Of a DNA stretch of 64,000 nucleotides, positions 3,945 to 37,312 are shown one piece after another. The translations under genes were made by a program, and so were the position numbers. Source of the stretch: a virus; the IMG/VR virus record IMGVR_UViG_3300037245_001320, positions 90,019-154,018 of that record; one strand, written 5' to 3'. How positions within the stretch are numbered: position 1 is the stretch's first letter; every line of letters begins with the position of its first letter. The notes beneath the pieces are model-generated. The model saw only the letters and a list, made by a program, of their open reading frames with translations, was not told where the DNA came from and did no database searches.

Positions 3945-4706
3945 ATGACAATAACTAAAACATACCCATTTACTACGGATACTAATTATACTTATGATCC
4001 ATTAAAAGTAGTGATAACAAATGGAGAGGCTTCATTACTAGATCTCGGTGGAGGAACATATGCAACAGATAATCCAACTATAGTCTTTAATGATGAATTA
4101 CCTTTAGATGAATTACAATCATTTATAGAAACAAGTACTAAGGCAGGATTAGATGAGGTGAAATTTACGCTATCTAAGGAAGGGGTTGAGTATTATTACT
4201 CAGGGTCATGGGTTGTGAGTAATGGGACATATACAGAAGCAAACTTAGCGAGTGAGATAGAAACAAATAAGGCCTCCTTCACATCACTAGGAACTATAAC
4301 AAGTATAAAGATGTTTTTACACTCAGATGATGGTACAACAACACCCTCCGTAGACCTTATCTCTGTAGATTATAATTTTGTTCCTGTTGAGGAAACAATT
4401 CCAACAACTTTACTATATTGGTATGCAAAACATACAAATGCAGCGGATGATACAGCTATAGCCACTATTGAACTTACAAATTCCGTAGTTAAATATGGAA
4501 TACAGACAACTATAACAAAAGAAGCTATAGAGATTCAGCCAAATAGGGGCCTTTATCAGGTAGAAATAGTGGATACCCAAAATATGGAAACAGATGCTAG
4601 TTCAAATCAGCAAACATACACACTAGTCATGGGCGGACAGACATTTACTTTACATATTCCTGCACTTGATTCTGTTAACCTCTATGATAGTGGAATAATA
4701 GTATAA
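3945..4706 (+). CDS. Putative virion structural protein
   Basis: AAGGAG RBS; Thr-rich beta-type composition; located in the tail module. Confidence 0.55.
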   Translation: MTITKTYPFTTDTNYTYDPLKVVITNGEASLLDLGGGTYATDNPTIVFNDELPLDELQSFIETSTKAGLDEVKFTLSKEGVEYYYSGSWVVSNGTYTEANLASEIETNKASFTSLGTITSIKMFLHSDDGTTTPSVDLISVDYNFVPVEETIPTTLLYWYAKHTNAADDTAIATIELTNSVVKYGIQTTITKEAIEIQPNRGLYQVEIVDTQNMETDASSNQQTYTLVMGGQTFTLHIPALDSVNLYDSGIIV

Positions 4707-12676: not shown

Positions 12677-14457
12677 GCCCTTTTAGAATATTCATTCCAT
12701 AAATAACTTAACATGTCCTCTTCTTCTGTATCAATTCCATCAATAGCTTTATCAGACATAGCTTTTTTATTATCTAATTTAGCTATTATGTACTTCTCAA
12801 TTGTCTCTTCAGCAGGAAGGAATATAGATTGTACAATGTCAGACTCTTGTCCTATACGTCTTACACGGTCCTGTCCCTGTTGTACAATATGCGAGCTGAA
12901 GCCAGTCTCAAAGAAAATAACAGTATCTGATCTATGTAGAGTTATTCCTACAGAAGCAGCGACTAAATTTCCACAGAATATTCTAATACCTTTGTCATTT
13001 TGGAAGGATTGTACCGAAGCTTCTTTATCTTCATCTTTCATTCCTCCCACAAGGCAAACTGCCTTTTTACCATAGTGATTCATCACTTGTTCTACCACTT
13101 TACGATGATGACAGAAGATAACATATCGTTTGTCAGGGTAGGTTTTTAGTAACCCATCAACATATTTAAAACAGTTTTTTAACTTGCCATCTCTCGCTAA
13201 ATCTAATAGTATTTTAAACTGAGCTCTTTTAGCTTGTTGCATCCTTGGAGAATCTTCATCTGTTTCATTCTGAGCAATCCACTCTTGAAAATTATCTGTG
13301 GCTTGATCGTACGCTAATCTAAAGTCAGGTTCTAATTCTAGGGGTATTACCATTCTAGTTGTTTTAGGTAGTTCTTTTAAAACTTCATCTTTTGTAACCC
13401 TGACCATGTAATCTTTTACTAACATGTAATTTAACTTATCTAAGTTCTTCCCTCCTGTTATCTTGATTGTATTGGCTTTATATCCTGGCTCTGTTTTACA
13501 AAAGTAATCTATAAATGCATATCGATCATTAAACCTTTCTGGGTGTAACCAATGTAACCAGTTATAGATGTTTGACGGATTATGAGGGATAGGTGTGCCT
13601 GACATTGGTATAATCGCTTGAACACCTTTCCACTTAATTCCTGTTTGCTTTTCCATCTCAGGAGATAATCCCATAAGAATCATATCCATAGCTTGAACTC
13701 TCTTAGGGGGTTTTTTACATATTGTCTTTTTCCCTCTAACTATGTGAACCTCTTCCTCAGCTTTTAATTTATACTCAGGATAATATTTAGATATGATAGT
13801 TGGTCCTGTATTATAACAGTGACATTCATCTACAGCTACATAAGAAGGTTTAAACTCTGTTAAAATATACTCTAAATGTTTCCATAACATTGCATTATTT
13901 ATAATACATATATCATGATCTTTGTAGGTTAAATCTAATCCCTTAGGAAGAGATCGTACTACATGTATTGAATAGTTATCTTTGGGATCTAACCAAAGTT
14001 CACATTCTCTTTTAAGGTTTAGCTTCAATGTCGATGGACAGACAATAAGAACCTTCTTAAATTTGCCCTCTCTGATAGTAGAGGTCATTGTCAAACTTTT
14101 CCCACATCCCATATCGGAAGCCTCATACAACCTGTAATTATGGTGCTTTATTTTCCTAATATTATCTAGTTGATAATCTCGTGCAAGGTCTGTTACATTA
14201 TCCAAAACAGTCTTCTTATATTCCATGGATAATGGAGGAGCAGGTTTAGTTGATTTCTTCTTCTCAACCTTCTTCTCTTCCTTAAAAACAAAACCCAACT
14301 GACCCAACAACTCTTCCGACCGAGGATTAACAGGGCAAGTCCACGCCCCAGAGAACTTCTTATCTTTATTATAATCAGGCACCCAATCTCTTCCTGGAAT
14401 CATCTTAATCTTAGAAACAATAGTATTCCAGAGGGGTTTGTTGTTAGGAATGTACAT
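12673..14457 (-). CDS. SNF2-family (SF2) helicase
   Basis: DMGCGKS, IVCP, DECH, SGTP, Q..DRVRRIGQ. Confidence 0.9.
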   Translation of the reverse strand: MYIPNNKPLWNTIVSKIKMIPGRDWVPDYNKDKKFSGAWTCPVNPRSEELLGQLGFVFKEEKKVEKKKSTKPAPPLSMEYKKTVLDNVTDLARDYQLDNIRKIKHHNYRLYEASDMGCGKSLTMTSTIREGKFKKVLIVCPSTLKLNLKRECELWLDPKDNYSIHVVRSLPKGLDLTYKDHDICIINNAMLWKHLEYILTEFKPSYVAVDECHCYNTGPTIISKYYPEYKLKAEEEVHIVRGKKTICKKPPKRVQAMDMILMGLSPEMEKQTGIKWKGVQAIIPMSGTPIPHNPSNIYNWLHWLHPERFNDRYAFIDYFCKTEPGYKANTIKITGGKNLDKLNYMLVKDYMVRVTKDEVLKELPKTTRMVIPLELEPDFRLAYDQATDNFQEWIAQNETDEDSPRMQQAKRAQFKILLDLARDGKLKNCFKYVDGLLKTYPDKRYVIFCHHRKVVEQVMNHYGKKAVCLVGGMKDEDKEASVQSFQNDKGIRIFCGNLVAASVGITLHRSDTVIFFETGFSSHIVQQGQDRVRRIGQESDIVQSIFLPAEETIEKYIIAKLDNKKAMSDKAIDGIDTEEEDMLSYLWNEYSKRA

Positions 14458-28468: not shown

Positions 28469-28897
28469 TTATCTGTTACCATTCCAGATTCCTAAAAACT
28501 TATTACAATCAGTCCGAGAGATAGTGTGATTCTTTATCACATCTCCCTCTTTCTTTTTAGCTACATAACCTAATTTCTCTGCATCTTTCCTGAACTGTCT
28601 TAATTTATAATTAGGATCAATTCCACATTTATGTAAATATCTTAAAGCTACTGCTAATTTCATAACAGGTTTTGTTATAGCTAAATCTGGAAAACCATTT
28701 TCTAAATAATATGACCAAATATTTTCATACAGTCTCCACTTCGCTTCAGCGTTCTTATATGACAAAACCCCCTCATAGAGTTCTGCATAGTTATATACAT
28801 ATCTAATGTTGGGGGTTGTTTTATCATGATCTTTATTATACTGCACCATAACTGCGTAAGCTTGGTTAGGTGTTATAGTTTTTTTGATCGGTAACAT
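28469..28897 (-). CDS. Hypothetical protein, possibly DNA-binding
   Basis: Basic; replication-operon context. Confidence 0.5.
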   Translation of the reverse strand: MLPIKKTITPNQAYAVMVQYNKDHDKTTPNIRYVYNYAELYEGVLSYKNAEAKWRLYENIWSYYLENGFPDLAITKPVMKLAVALRYLHKCGIDPNYKLRQFRKDAEKLGYVAKKKEGDVIKNHTISRTDCNKFLGIWNGNR

Positions 28898-31649: not shown

Positions 31650-32096
31650 TTAGTGACTCCCTGTACTGCCATAAGCTCCTGATCCTCTTTCTGTTTCCTT
31701 ATTTAAAGAATCTACTTTTTTAAATACTGCCTCTGTTGTGGGAGCATAAACACCTTGACAAACTCTCATTCCGTGAGTTACATAAAATGGTTTATCCCCT
31801 TCATTTCTAAGGATAATTCCAACTTCTCCCACGTAATCTTCATCAATTGTAGCAGTTCCCTGGGCAATAATCAAACCATGCTTTTTAGTTAAGCCTGATC
31901 TTGATCTTAATTGGACTTCATATCCTTCATAAATACCCATTTTAATACCAGAAGGTACAGTTACTGCTTCCCCTATACCTATTCTAATGTCTTCATTAGG
32001 TGTGAATGCTTTTAAATCGAAGCCTGATGATTGTTTTGTGCCATATTCAGGCATGAACTCTTTTGTTTCTATTAGTAATTCTTTTTGATCTCTCAA
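31650..32096 (-). CDS. dut: Trimeric dUTPase
   Basis: SGFDL, RSGL, TIDEDYVGE, RVCQ, RGSGAYGSTG. Confidence 0.92.
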   Translation of the reverse strand: MRDQKELLIETKEFMPEYGTKQSSGFDLKAFTPNEDIRIGIGEAVTVPSGIKMGIYEGYEVQLRSRSGLTKKHGLIIAQGTATIDEDYVGEVGIILRNEGDKPFYVTHGMRVCQGVYAPTTEAVFKKVDSLNKETERGSGAYGSTGSH

Positions 32097-32128: not shown

Positions 32129-32209
32129 TGGATCTTATCCGACTCGAACGGATGACTTCATGAGAGCATTACCTTTGATCATGATTTCTACCAACTGAAT
32201 TAAAGACCC
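32129..32209 (-). tRNA. tRNA-like element with an expanded 15-nt anticodon loop (no assignable anticodon)
   Basis: Acceptor GGGTCTT/AAGATCC, D-loop AGTTGGTA, stem CATGA/TCATG, T-arm ATCCG-TTCGAGT-CGGAT. Confidence 0.8.
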
Positions 32210-32211
32210 GT

Positions 32212-32682
32212 ATGTTAGATTTTCACAGCGAATCCTCCCCAAACTGGCTAAAGTATTTACAACCCTTGAGCAATGAGTTGGTCCTTTTCCTTATTTTATT
32301 TACGAGAGTTTTAAAAGGTCTTCTAAACGTACTCTCTTTATTAAATCAATTTTTGTGCTCTTGGTTTTTATTCCAACTCATAGTCTTTCCTCTGATCGTC
32401 ATAAGGGTTTCTCTGTTACTCCCTTAACTCTCAACCTCTTTTAAAGCAATAGGCGTGCATCAACGCCTCGGTTTACTTAATGGAAGGGTTATTAATCTCC
32501 CACCTTACTCCTGACCTGCGAAGTAAGCTCTCGCTTTAATTCTCATGCTTCCTCCTTTATATTGTCTTATCTTAATAATTGTAGTATATCCCTTATGTCC
32601 CATATACCAGAGGCTGACACAACGCTTATTGTCACGACACCAATTATTAAAAAGTTTATTTATTATTTGTTACTCTTGACTT
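32212..32682 (-). ncRNA. Candidate large structured non-coding RNA
   Basis: No long ORF on the transcribed strand; at least ten nested helices; own promoter; abuts the tRNA-like element. Confidence 0.65.
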
Positions 32683-32687
32683 AAAAC

Positions 32688-32716
32688 AGTATACCACACT
32701 TTCAAGTAAAAGTCAA
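32688..32716 (-). promoter_or_regulatory. Sigma70-type promoter TTGACT-17-TATACT with TG extension
   Basis: Consensus boxes; directly upstream of the ncRNA/tRNA unit. Confidence 0.8.
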
Positions 32717-32872
32717 CCCCTTTTCGGAATATTTCTCAATTATTTTTTCAATTGTTATATCTTCTGGTAAATCCTTTAAAATAATGCCTTCTAAACGACA
32801 GCTCTCCCGATAATTATCCTTTCTAACCTTCCTAATGAATTCTGCTTTCTCTTCAAAAGTCTTGTTAATCAT
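32702..32872 (-). CDS. FicA/YhfG-like antitoxin (56 aa, not in the ORF track)
   Basis: MINKTFEEKAEFIRKVRKDNYRESCRLEG...; contains the S-x-x-x-E-G inhibitory motif. Confidence 0.6.
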   Translation of the reverse strand: MINKTFEEKAEFIRKVRKDNYRESCRLEGIILKDLPEDITIEKIIEKYSEKGLTFT

Positions 32873-33067: not shown

Positions 33068-33574
33068 CTAATTATTTATTATTAAGAAATTTTTATATAG
33101 TCTTGGAGTAATATCTCTCTGACTATAGATCCTTCTTAATATTTGTATAAGTGATTTATTATCTCTTTTATACAATCTATAAATTCTTACTGATAAAGGA
33201 GCTTGTACATAAAGTATTAAATCACACTTTTCAAGTAAGGTTGATTTATGTAAAACAGCTCCGTTTAATATGCTGCTTCCTTGAATATCTTCTAAAACTT
33301 GTTTTGTTATTAAAGGATGAACAAAGTCGTTTAAAACTTTCATAGCTCTTTTTGATTTAAATACTATCTTAGATAATTCCTTGGGATTCCTATACTGATT
33401 AAAAGGTACACCACACGTAGTGAGTAATTCACAACTTATAGCAAACATGTTTTCATCCACTATCTTATGTCCGTACAAATCTAAATCAAAATGAGTATGT
33501 CCTGTTTTCTCACTTAGTTTCTCAGAGATATAATTCTTACCTGATCCTGATTTTCCCACAATACCTATATTCAT
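33068..33574 (-). CDS. coaE: Dephospho-CoA kinase
   Basis: IGIVGKSGSGKN, D.D..GH, L..IVF...L..FVHP, R..R..KRD. Confidence 0.8.
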   Translation of the reverse strand: MNIGIVGKSGSGKNYISEKLSEKTGHTHFDLDLYGHKIVDENMFAISCELLTTCGVPFNQYRNPKELSKIVFKSKRAMKVLNDFVHPLITKQVLEDIQGSSILNGAVLHKSTLLEKCDLILYVQAPLSVRIYRLYKRDNKSLIQILRRIYSQRDITPRLYKNFLIINN

Positions 33575-34527
33575 GACAGATATTTCTCATATGCTTTTAC
33601 ACCAAATTCCTGTAATGATCTAATCATGGATGAAGAAATATGTTGTAGCTCAGGTTTACATGTAAAATAAACAACAGGGTTATTAAAACCTGCATCAATT
33701 AAAGTCTGCTTCAAAGCTATCTCACTAGTTAAATCCTCTGTATTCCTTAATCCTCTTATCAGTGAATAGTTATTATCTTTAAATACATCCACTAATAAAC
33801 CATCATAGGAAATAAACTCCTGAATAGGATTTGCTATGTAGTAGGATTGTACTTTATCTCTGTTATGTCCTTGAGCAATAATAACCTTATCAAAAACTCC
33901 CTCAGCTTGTGTAACAATATCTTCATGACCTATATGAAAAGGATTAAAACTTCCTGCATACACTCCTATCTTGTACTGCTTATTAGTTACATAATTTATT
34001 AAAAAATCACAACTAATATACTCATCCTCACTAGATGTAAAATTATCTTGGTACTTTTTAAGGAATTCTAATCTTCCTTCTTTGTATTCCTCTAATGAGA
34101 ACTTCTGATACTCATAAAAAATAGCATCTTCATATTGTATAAGCTTACAACCTTCTTCTTTGAATATAGCTGTATCTGCTTGAACAATCCAATTCTTATT
34201 ATTATCTTCAAAATCTGCATAGTGCTTCTTTGTAGCTCTAATTAACTCTGCTACATACTGTCTATCAAAATCATTATCATCAGTATAGCAACTGTTACGA
34301 TTAGGATCGCTATGTCTCAACCATGCCATTGCGGATCTTTCTTCATTATCATCTCTGGAAGGATCATATATAAAGTCATGCCATACGATAGCATTAAATA
34401 AATGTTCATTCTGCGTTGGTCTGTTCAAACCACAGTATTCCAACATATTATAGATGTGCTGTATTGTATGAAATCTTCTGTGTGGTTCTGCATATGCTTT
34501 TAATACTTCTTCTGGTATATAACTCAT
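33571..34527 (-). CDS. coaD: HD-domain hydrolase fused to phosphopantetheine adenylyltransferase
   Basis: Y.EPHR.FH..H..WHD..YDP..NEE.SA; GSFNPFHIGH, IRGLR..D..E, HISSSMIR. Confidence 0.85.
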   Translation of the reverse strand: MSYIPEEVLKAYAEPHRRFHTIQHIYNMLEYCGLNRPTQNEHLFNAIVWHDFIYDPSRDDNEERSAMAWLRHSDPNRNSCYTDDNDFDRQYVAELIRATKKHYADFEDNNKNWIVQADTAIFKEEGCKLIQYEDAIFYEYQKFSLEEYKEGRLEFLKKYQDNFTSSEDEYISCDFLINYVTNKQYKIGVYAGSFNPFHIGHEDIVTQAEGVFDKVIIAQGHNRDKVQSYYIANPIQEFISYDGLLVDVFKDNNYSLIRGLRNTEDLTSEIALKQTLIDAGFNNPVVYFTCKPELQHISSSMIRSLQEFGVKAYEKYLS

Positions 34528-37145: not shown

Positions 37146-37247
37146 CATATTATTCTCTCCTCTCAAAAATATGCGTTAGAGTCGCATCCCTCCGTCTAAC
37201 CTCACCAAAGTTAGTCTATATTCATTCAGTTAAATATAGACAAATCA

Positions 37248-37308
37248 ATAGGAATTGAACCTACGACTTCTTACCAAACCTCTACGAACGAGTTGGAATC
37301 GAACCTAC
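37248..37308 (-). pseudogene. Two degenerate tRNA T-arm remnants
   Basis: GTAGG-TTCGATT-CCAAC and AAGTC-GTAGG-TTCAATT-CCTAT. Confidence 0.5.
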
Positions 37309-37312
37309 ATTC

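What the first reader, a model, noticed from the sequence alone, without database searches (positions are those of the whole stretch)
32129..32209. tRNA body with a 15-nt anticodon loop
Seen: intact acceptor, D and T arms and a CATGA/TCATG anticodon stem. The loop is UCAAAGGUAAUGCUC, 8 nt longer than canonical, and removing a canonical 37/38 intron would not give U33. Inference: because the arms are intact, it may be a maintained non-decoding mimic (processing signal, or decoy for anticodon nucleases, synthetases or uncharged-tRNA sensors) rather than a decayed tRNA.
Basis: partly seen in the sequence, partly recalled or inferred. Interest (0 to 1): 0.7.

Follow-up and report, generated by a model that had tools for sequence, protein, structure and literature searches.

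The report
Conserved alanine-type phage tRNA mimic
A 154-kb uncultured phage carries a real, evolutionarily maintained RNA gene shaped like an alanine tRNA but with a conserved 15-base loop instead of a codon-reading loop. It cannot decode and most likely acts as a chargeable tRNA or tmRNA look-alike; its partner is unknown.

Summary
Window 32209..32129 (minus strand) is an 81-nt cloverleaf that scores 42 bits on the Rfam tRNA model once the filters are relaxed. It has a 6-bp stem capped by a 15-nt loop.

It is neither an assembly error nor a decaying tRNA:
- A second assembly is 100% identical.
- Three sister phages, whose dUTPase is only 56-62% identical, carry the same element with the same 15-nt loop length. 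Ten of the 15 loop positions are invariant.
- Eight stem pairs show compensatory changes.
- The G3:U70 pair and A73, the alanine identity set, never change.

In a fifth phage the positional orthologue has lost the D stem. It matches the Rfam tmRNA model as a tRNA-like domain without a tag (43 bits, below the curated cut-off of 47).

Intron readings disagree between orthologues, and no splicing motif is present.

Best reading: a non-decoding, alanine-type tRNA/tmRNA mimic, cut out of a transcript in which tRNA-type genes separate the noncoding RNAs. Its conserved loop is probably a recognition surface. The published precedent is the tag-less tmRNA of mycobacteriophage DS6A. Earlier notes of this scan report other alanine-type tRNA mimics in other phage genomes, so this is a new variant of a known kind. 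Charging, partner and function are untested.

The parts
32688..32716 (-). Sigma-70-type promoter, TTGACT-17-TATACT, with TG before the -10 box. It reads towards the element.
   Evidence: 10 of 12 consensus matches; sequence. It is a consensus match only. No other promoter-like site lies between it and the element.
32210..32687 (-). About 480 nt of noncoding, structured leader built from modules that are conserved in sister phages. It ends 3 nt before the element.
   Evidence: Modules are 89-92% identical to L004, L005 and L013. No ORF of 40 aa or more lies on the minus strand here. No Rfam family matches. A weak terminator-like hairpin lies at 32468..32451.
32129..32209 (-). The tRNA-like RNA gene (81 nt): an alanine-identity cloverleaf with a non-decoding 15-nt loop.
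   Evidence: Rfam tRNA 42.0 bits. Family model R1 100.4 bits. Covariation. Identical in a second assembly, L010.
32203..32209 (-). Acceptor stem, 5' strand (positions 1-7). G3 is at 32207.
   Evidence: The stem is 100% paired in 4 of 4 family members, with three pairs changed on both sides. The 3:70 pair is G:U in all.
32185..32200 (-). D arm (positions 10-25): three pairs plus an A10/A25 mismatch, with a loop that carries G18 and G19.
   Evidence: The arm is present in the window, L011 and L013. It is lost in L014 and L004.
32179..32184 (-). 5' strand of the 6-bp stem in the anticodon-arm position (positions 26-31).
   Evidence: Paired in 4 of 4 members, with two pairs changed on both sides.
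32164..32178 (-). Conserved 15-nt loop UCAAAGGUAAUGCUC. Probable substructure: a 4-nt 5' bulge, two pairs (5:14 and 6:13), a 6-nt cap holding an invariant UAA, and a 1-nt 3' bulge.
   Evidence: The length is 15 nt in the window, L011, L013 and L014, and 10 of 15 positions are invariant among those four. Eight of 15 are invariant when L004 is included. The 5:14 pair changes from A-U to G-C in L004 (alignment). RNAalifold predicts the two inner pairs independently.
32158..32163 (-). 3' strand of the 6-bp stem (positions 47-52).
32137..32153 (-). T arm (positions 57-73): 5-bp stem and a UUCGAGU loop.
   Evidence: 100% paired, with three pairs changed on both sides.
32129..32136 (-). Acceptor stem, 3' strand (32130-32136; U70 is at 32132), and discriminator A73 (32129). 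No CCA follows.
   Evidence: A73 is invariant in all five members.
31650..32096 (-). dUTPase gene. Its ribosome-binding site starts about 20 nt after the element. It is the conserved downstream neighbour.
   Evidence: PHROG dUTPase, E 2.3e-45. The same gene follows the RNA cluster in L004, L005, L011, L013, L014 and L040.

Best explanation
This is a maintained gene for a non-decoding tRNA mimic with alanine identity.

Proposed steps:
1. It is transcribed with a roughly 0.5-kb structured leader from a strong promoter (inferred).
2. It is released by the host's tRNA-processing enzymes, RNase P at the 5' end and RNase Z plus CCA addition at the 3' end (inferred).
3. It is probably charged with alanine by host AlaRS, because G3:U70, G2:C71 and A73 are invariant (inferred from established identity rules).
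4. Its lower arm is a 6-bp stem capped by a conserved 15-nt loop. That loop is too long, and lacks U33, for codon reading. The RNA therefore cannot act as an adaptor.

What every orthologue conserves is the acceptor/T minihelix plus the loop motif. The D arm is dispensable. The most likely mode of action is therefore a tag-less tmRNA-like or alanyl-tRNA-like competitor or decoy. The tRNA end would engage host tRNA-handling factors (AlaRS, EF-Tu, and possibly the SmpB ribosome-rescue pathway). The conserved loop would be the specific recognition surface for a partner not yet identified.
For: Shown:
- The element is a significant tRNA match: Rfam 42 bits, E 2.6e-8.
- It is identical in a second assembly (L010).
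- Orthologues lie in sister phages whose dUTPase is only 56-62% identical: L011/L012, L013 and L014.
- On the four-sequence alignment, 98.9% of cells pair and 8 pairs change on both sides. Slid controls give at most 3, and 0 of 500 shuffles reach the observed values. RNAalifold recovers the same helices.
- Loop length is fixed at 15 nt, with 10 of 15 positions invariant, while the stems drift.
- G3:U70 is G:U in all members although the neighbouring pairs 4:69, 5:68 and 7:66 change. A73 is invariant.
- The L004 element matches the family model at 47.5 bits with its loop aligned. It shares the 5' flank with L013, so it is a positional orthologue. It also matches the Rfam tmRNA model as a tRNA-like domain with the inner 306 positions deleted: 43.1 bits against a cut-off of 47.
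- There is one copy per genome here.
- A strong promoter lies upstream.
- In this phage group, noncoding RNA modules are flanked by tRNA or tRNA-like genes.

From the literature: mycobacteriophage DS6A carries little more than a tmRNA tRNA-like domain, and a similar molecule strongly inhibits tmRNA (PMC4131195; PMC11915505). The DS6A element has the same architecture.
Against: - There is no expression, processing or charging data.
- The family is small: five lineages. It was not found in IMG/VR, JGI metagenomes, 185,579 species genomes or 50,697 cultured phages, using the patterns and searches available.
- The window form keeps a canonical D arm and a stem where SmpB sits on tmRNA, so SmpB binding is doubtful for it.
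- Titrating SmpB would not explain the conserved loop.
- The window element is called tRNA, not tmRNA, by Rfam. tRNA and tmRNA belong to one clan and only the best match is reported.
- The phage encodes no SmpB, CCA-adding enzyme, PTH2 or Thg1.
- The inner loop pairs rest on a single compensatory event.
Confidence: 0.5

Rival explanations
1. Decoy or bait for a tRNA-targeting host defence, such as an anticodon nuclease, a tRNA-modifying toxin or a tRNA sensor. The tRNA body recruits the enzyme and the conserved long loop traps or evades it. Alanine charging would be incidental.
For: The loop sequence is conserved while the stems drift. The phage encodes an RtcB RNA ligase. Relatives encode Thg1-like, RtcB, RNase T-like and PTH2 proteins, which is a tRNA-repair toolkit.
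Against: The loop does not resemble a known 7-nt anticodon loop, and position 33 varies (C, U, A, U). This reading leaves the strict conservation of G3:U70 and A73 unexplained. RtcB lies 64 kb away and is not linked to the element. No defence target can be named.
Confidence: 0.2
2. Pure processing punctuation or stabilising scaffold. The tRNA shape serves only to let RNase P and RNase Z cut the upstream noncoding RNA from the dUTPase mRNA.
For: In all relatives, noncoding RNA modules are flanked by tRNAs or tRNA-like shells. The gene before dUTPase is always a tRNA or tRNA-like element. One module starts right after a tRNA-type 3' end in both L004 and L011.
Against: RNase P and RNase Z need only the acceptor/T minihelix. 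Punctuation does not explain a 15-nt loop with 8-10 invariant positions, an invariant wobble pair at 3:70, or an invariant A73. True tRNAs (Cys, Ser, Met) do the same job elsewhere in the cluster.
Confidence: 0.12
3. A real decoding tRNA whose loop carries a mini-intron of 8-10 nt, removed by an unknown endonuclease and joined by the phage RtcB. This would give a Leu/Phe-type NAA anticodon or an Ala-type NGC anticodon.
For: The phage has RtcB. The last 7 loop bases of the three cloverleaf forms contain the alanine anticodons UGC or AGC (direct reading).
Against: - ARAGORN reads the orthologues differently: Phe(AAA) with an 8-nt insert and Phe(AAA) with a 10-nt insert.
- The supposed anticodon varies (CAA, UAA, AAA) while the supposed intron is the conserved part.
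- No bulge-helix-bulge motif can be drawn (direct reading).
- A leucine tRNA needs a long variable arm, and this one has 5 nt.
- In the Ala register, position 33 is A and position 37 is U.
- The forms without a D arm (L014, L004) read UUC at that place.
- No splicing of such inserts is known in bacteria.
Confidence: 0.04
4. A recently damaged tRNA gene (an 8-nt insertion) or an assembly artefact.
For: Default tRNA finders reject it.
Against: The sequence is the same in a second contig. The same loop length and motif occur in phages that have diverged to 56-62% protein identity, with compensatory stem changes.
Confidence: 0.02

Closest known systems
Tag-less (TLD-only, CDS-less) tmRNA of mycobacteriophage DS6A (PMC4131195; PMC11915505; JN698994 about 28478-28557)
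   Same: - Phage-encoded and about 80 nt long.
- G3:U70 and A73.
- T arm present.
- No tag reading frame.
- A stem capped by a non-decoding region sits where tmRNA helix 2 leaves the tRNA-like domain.
- The L004 orthologue of the window element matches the Rfam tmRNA model in this truncated form.
- A similar molecule is reported to inhibit tmRNA.
   Different: - The window form keeps a canonical D arm, a 5-nt variable loop and a stem in the true anticodon-arm position.
- Rfam calls it tRNA, not tmRNA.
- Its 15-nt loop motif is absent from DS6A.
- Similarity to DS6A is no greater than to ordinary tRNAs: 34 bits on model R1, against about 40 bits for tRNA-Met.
Bacterial tRNA-Ala
   Same: - Cloverleaf shape.
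- G1:C72, G2:C71, G3:U70 and A73.
- Standard tertiary nucleotides: U8, A14, G18, G19, G53:C61, the T-loop UUC and A58.
- Rfam tRNA score of 42 bits.
- The cloverleaf forms even hold UGC or AGC near the 3' side of the loop.
   Different: - The loop is 15 nt, not 7.
- There is no U33.
- The arm is too long to reach the decoding centre.
- Most of the loop's own sequence is conserved, which an anticodon loop does not require.
- The D arm is dispensable in the orthologues.
CDS-less organellar tmRNAs (jakobid and oomycete mitochondria; Mallomonadaceae plastids, about 65 bp) (PMC11915505)
   Same: They are reduced to the tRNA-like domain, retained under selection, and presumed to act without tagging.
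   Different: They are cellular or organellar and co-occur with a dedicated SmpB. No conserved long loop is reported for them. They show no sequence relationship to this element.
Phage T4 stable RNAs C and D (species 1 and 2) of the T4 tRNA cluster (from my own knowledge, not checked here)
   Same: They are small stable RNAs encoded among phage tRNA genes and matured with them. Their function is unknown.
   Different: They are longer (about 120-140 nt) and are not known to carry alanine identity or this loop. No similarity was tested.
Intron-bearing tRNAs (archaeal bulge-helix-bulge introns; bacterial group I introns in anticodon loops)
   Same: The extra bases sit in the anticodon loop. ARAGORN places the insert at 37/38.
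   Different: The insert is only 8-10 nt. There is no bulge-helix-bulge motif and no group I fold. The insert is the conserved part, and the implied anticodon is not conserved.

Membership tests
Canonical decoding tRNA (Rfam RF00005) | Cloverleaf scoring above the curated cut-off | tested here: met
   42.0 bits against a cut-off of 29 on a 101-nt stretch. The L011 orthologue scores 46.1 bits.
Canonical decoding tRNA (Rfam RF00005) | 7-nt anticodon loop with U33 and a purine at position 37 | tested here: not met
   The loop is 15 nt in four lineages. Position 33 is C, U, A or U.
Alanine-identity acceptor (tRNA-Ala or tmRNA) | G3:U70 wobble pair with A73 and G2:C71 | tested here: met
   The 3:70 pair is G:U in 4 of 4 aligned members and also in L004. 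A73 is invariant. Actual charging is not testable with these tools.
tmRNA tRNA-like domain / tag-less tmRNA (Rfam RF00023; DS6A type) | Match to the tmRNA covariance model | tested here: not met
   The window element shows only a tRNA hit. tRNA and tmRNA are in one clan and only the best match is listed. The L004 orthologue scores 43.1 bits, under the cut-off of 47.
tmRNA tRNA-like domain / tag-less tmRNA (Rfam RF00023; DS6A type) | D region without a stem (GGNUUCGAC-type loop), with the lower arm replaced by helix 2 | tested here: not met
   The window, L011 and L013 keep a 3-bp D stem and a GG loop. L014 and L004 do have the stem-less form.
tmRNA tRNA-like domain / tag-less tmRNA (Rfam RF00023; DS6A type) | No tag reading frame | tested here: met
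   The RNA is 81 nt with only a 15-nt loop. ARAGORN's tmRNA search finds no tag.
tmRNA tRNA-like domain / tag-less tmRNA (Rfam RF00023; DS6A type) | Binds SmpB | not testable with these tools
   The phage has no SmpB gene. The host is unknown.
Intron-containing tRNA | A splice motif (bulge-helix-bulge or group I fold) and a mature loop that agrees between orthologues | tested here: not met
   No 3-4-3 bulge-helix-bulge can be drawn (direct reading). ARAGORN gives Leu(CAA) with a 10-nt insert, Phe(AAA) with an 8-nt insert and Phe(AAA) with a 10-nt insert for three orthologues.

The most novel reading that the evidence does not exclude
These phages encode a distinct class of alanine-chargeable tRNA mimic. 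Its extended arm, with the conserved NNAARGKUAAWKCYC loop, docks on a specific host machine: for example a ribosome-rescue or ribosome quality-control factor that selects alanyl-tRNA, or a tRNA-directed immune enzyme. The phage would thereby switch that pathway off or redirect it. The interchange between cloverleaf and tmRNA-like bodies in orthologues would then show how tag-less tmRNA-like RNAs can arise from tRNA-Ala.
Probability: 0.3. Interest if true: 0.75.

Novelty: new variant of a known kind. Interest (0 to 1): 0.6.

Why it matters
Phage tRNA genes are usually read as codon-supply or anti-nuclease spares. A conserved tRNA-shaped RNA that keeps the alanine-charging marks but cannot decode points to a different strategy: mimicry of alanyl-tRNA or tmRNA.

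Only one such phage RNA is in the literature, the tag-less tmRNA-like gene of DS6A, and a similar molecule is reported to block trans-translation.

This family adds three things:
- a form that still has a full cloverleaf;
- a sharply conserved loop that can be used as a handle to fish for the partner;
- orthologues that link tRNA-like and tmRNA-like bodies.

It also shows that default tRNA finders and filtered Rfam scans miss these genes.

Tried and rejected
Tools that could not be used

Searches that found no further members
- Cultured phages: no similar DNA for the locus, the element (only generic tRNA fragments) or the L004 form. The DNA polymerase has only 23%-identity relatives.
- IMG/VR exact and degenerate patterns: nothing, or chance hits that the family model rejects.
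- JGI metagenomes: the exact loop gave nothing. The looser pattern gave 9 contigs, all chance matches in coding DNA.
- Species genomes (185,579): the specific pattern gave nothing.

Relatives that were not useful
- Protein-based locus search in IMG/VR gave no syntenic relative.
- L006, L007 and L002 are not syntenic.
- Two relatives had no retrievable DNA.

Readings considered and rejected
- Mini-intron reading: rejected on comparative grounds.
- Archaeal bulge-helix-bulge motif: cannot be drawn.
- Tag reading frame starting at the loop's GCU: open only in the window, so chance.
- Loop as a Shine-Dalgarno-like AAAGG, and the loop cap's resemblance to the 23S rRNA 1095 hairpin (GUAAUA): noted from memory, weak, and not pursued.

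Other negatives
- Single-sequence folding does not give the cloverleaf and is not significant (z = -1.4). This is usual for A+U-rich tRNAs.
- Genes for SmpB, a CCA-adding enzyme, PTH2 and Thg1 are absent from this phage.

Full report
**What is there**

The element lies on the minus strand at window 32209..32129. Read 5' to 3' it has:
- a 7-bp acceptor stem with a G3:U70 wobble pair, then discriminator A73 and no encoded CCA;
- U8 and A9;
- a D arm of three Watson-Crick pairs plus an A10/A25 mismatch, with A14, G18, G19 and A21;
- a 6-bp stem (U26:A44 plus CAUGA/UCAUG);
- a 15-nt loop, UCAAAGGUAAUGCUC;
- a 5-nt variable loop;
- a standard T arm (G53:C61, loop UUCGAGU).

ARAGORN with default settings and Rfam with its normal filters miss it. 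It treats the loop as a 14-nt stretch where the model has 6 positions. With introns allowed, ARAGORN finds this element and the tRNA-Met gene and nothing else in the whole 154-kb genome.

**Context**

The window is the last 64 kb of a 154-kb IMG/VR phage record. The phage has no cultured relatives; its DNA polymerase is 23% identical at best.

The element ends a 600-nt gene-free gap between a YhfG-like ORF and the dUTPase gene. A TTGACT-17-TATACT promoter with an extended -10 box lies at 32716..32688 and points through about 480 nt of structured, conserved noncoding RNA into the element. The dUTPase ribosome-binding site follows about 20 nt after A73. A weak terminator-like hairpin at 32468..32451 could reduce read-through. 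Co-transcription is inferred, not shown.

**Relatives**

No DNA-level relatives were found directly, so I reached sister phages through the neighbouring proteins, HD-CoaD and dUTPase.
- L010, another JGI contig, is 100% identical to the window over 1,501 nt, including the long loop. This argues against an assembly error.
- L011/L012 (dUTPase 59% identical), L013 (56%) and L014 (62%) each carry one homologue in the same RNA cluster upstream of dUTPase. L013 is contiguous with L003, so they are the same phage.
- In L013 the element sits directly before dUTPase, as in the window.

The loops are:
- window: UCAAAGGUAAUGCUC
- L011: UUAAAGGUAAAGCUC
- L013: UAAAAGGUAAAGCUC
- L014: AUAAAGUUAAUUCUC

All are 15 nt long, and 10 of the 15 positions are invariant.

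**Structure is under selection**

On the four-sequence alignment, the cloverleaf with the long loop pairs in 98.9% of cells, and eight pairs change on both sides:
- acceptor stem: 4:69, 5:68 and 7:66;
- lower stem: 27:43 and 28:42;
- T stem: 49:65, 51:63 and 52:62.

Slid controls show 0-3 such pairs and 36-47% pairing. None of 500 shuffles reaches the observed values. These sequences are related, so the shuffle count is not a probability, but the slid controls keep relatedness and the contrast is large. RNAalifold independently recovers the acceptor stem, the 6-bp stem, the T stem and two pairs inside the loop.

The 3:70 pair is G:U in every member although its neighbours vary, and A73 never changes. 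A wobble pair that one mutation could "repair" and that stays fixed amid drifting neighbours is best explained by selection. G3:U70 with A73 and G2:C71 is the established identity set of alanyl-tRNA synthetase, which does not read the anticodon (established knowledge).

**Link to tmRNA-like forms**

L014 has lost the D stem, leaving a 13-nt linker. L004 carries an element at 4036-4111 that Rfam aligns to the tmRNA model as a tRNA-like domain with the inner 306 positions deleted. That match scores 43.1 bits, under the cut-off of 47. The family model R1, built without L004, finds the same element at 47.5 bits and aligns its cap, GUAAGGUUAAUUCCC, to the 15-nt loop. This cap is 12 of 15 identical to the L014 loop, and the inner 5:14 pair changes from A-U to G-C.

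L004 and L013 also share a 24-nt block of 5' flank immediately upstream of their elements, 22 of 24 positions identical. The tmRNA-like form and the cloverleaf form are therefore positional orthologues.

What all five lineages keep is:
- the alanine-type acceptor/T minihelix;
- the stem;
- the loop motif (invariant A3, A4, G6, U8, A9, A10, C13 and C15).

The D arm is dispensable.

**Not an intron**

ARAGORN's intron readings differ between orthologues: Leu(CAA) with a 10-nt insert, Phe(AAA) with an 8-nt insert, and Phe(AAA) with a 10-nt insert. The supposed anticodon varies while the supposed intron is the conserved part. No bulge-helix-bulge motif can be drawn. A leucine tRNA would need a long variable arm.

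The last seven loop bases of the three cloverleaf forms contain UGC or AGC, which are alanine anticodons. With A at position 33 and U at position 37, and with UUC in the forms that lack a D arm, this is at most a vestige of tRNA-Ala ancestry. The phage does encode RtcB, 64 kb away, but no Thg1, SmpB, CCA-adding enzyme or PTH2.

**How it probably works**

Shown:
- It is a maintained, single-copy, tRNA-shaped gene.
- It carries alanine identity marks.
- It has a conserved loop that cannot decode.

Inferred:
- It is matured by RNase P, RNase Z and CCA addition. Its neighbours are true tRNAs, which also lack encoded CCA, and the noncoding RNA modules of the cluster are bounded by tRNA-type genes.
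- It is charged with alanine.
- It acts as a competitor or decoy.

The published precedent is mycobacteriophage DS6A. [quoted passage not shown] The DS6A element has the same overall architecture.

For the window form I hold the SmpB route at only about one in four. Its D arm and lower stem occupy the place SmpB takes on tmRNA, and SmpB titration would not need the conserved loop. The loop more likely marks a specific, still unknown partner.

Pure punctuation, a nuclease decoy unrelated to alanine, a spliced tRNA and a pseudogene are ranked below this, for the reasons given under rival explanations.

**Novelty**

The kind is known from one published phage case: a phage alanine-type, tag-less tRNA/tmRNA mimic. 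Other agents of this scan have also noted such mimics in other phage genomes. Those notes agree with my reading but are not independent evidence.

New here:
- a cloverleaf-retaining form;
- a fixed 15-nt loop motif;
- orthologues that bridge tRNA-like and tmRNA-like bodies.

The family is small (five lineages) and all functional steps are untested.

Noticed in passing
window 32346-32559 (-), with 32564-32651 and 32213-32278: A module with a strong Shine-Dalgarno site and a conserved 13-codon ORF (MRIKARAY...) is 89% identical to L004:3751-3969. In the window it lies inside an RNA that is contiguous in L004 (L004:2999-3149). It looks like an inserted, possibly mobile, RNA module. No Rfam family matches.
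   Followed up: partly
window 37240-37311 (-): Directly 3' of tRNA-Met(CAT) lie two T-arm-like hairpins (loops UUCGAUU and UUCAAUU) without a full cloverleaf. The family model gives only 17 bits. They could be a degenerate tRNA or another tRNA-like shell.
   Followed up: partly
L004:4317-4432; L005:14915-15047: A second, different family of tRNA-like RNAs has an acceptor stem, a D-like arm and a T arm, with a conserved 40-44-nt insert in the anticodon-arm position and no G3:U70. The two copies are homologous to each other.
   Followed up: partly
L005:14747-14905; L040:10-148: Acceptor-plus-T-arm shells enclose inserts of about 130-150 nt. In L040 the shell lies directly before dUTPase. In this phage group the gene before dUTPase is always a tRNA or a tRNA-like shell.
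   Followed up: no
L005:10128-12332 and 13044-13610; L003:5916-6656; genome 57123-58295 (outside the window): Relatives encode Thg1-like, RtcB and RNase T-like proteins, and one also encodes PTH2. This phage keeps RtcB (390 aa, Pfam E 5.5e-61) but has no Thg1. Together they form a tRNA repair toolkit typical of an arms race over tRNA.
   Followed up: partly
window 32702-32872 (-): The 56-aa ORF just upstream of the RNA promoter matches Pfam YhfG (E 2e-7, above the cut-off). No Fic partner was looked for.
   Followed up: no
window 33068-34527 (-): An HD-hydrolase/CoaD fusion is followed by CoaE. The pair is conserved at 52-62% identity in the sister phages, and the nearest named cellular homologues are mostly Bacteroidota genomes assembled from metagenomes. 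This phage's strong Shine-Dalgarno sites and sigma-70-type promoter argue against a Bacteroidota host.
   Followed up: no
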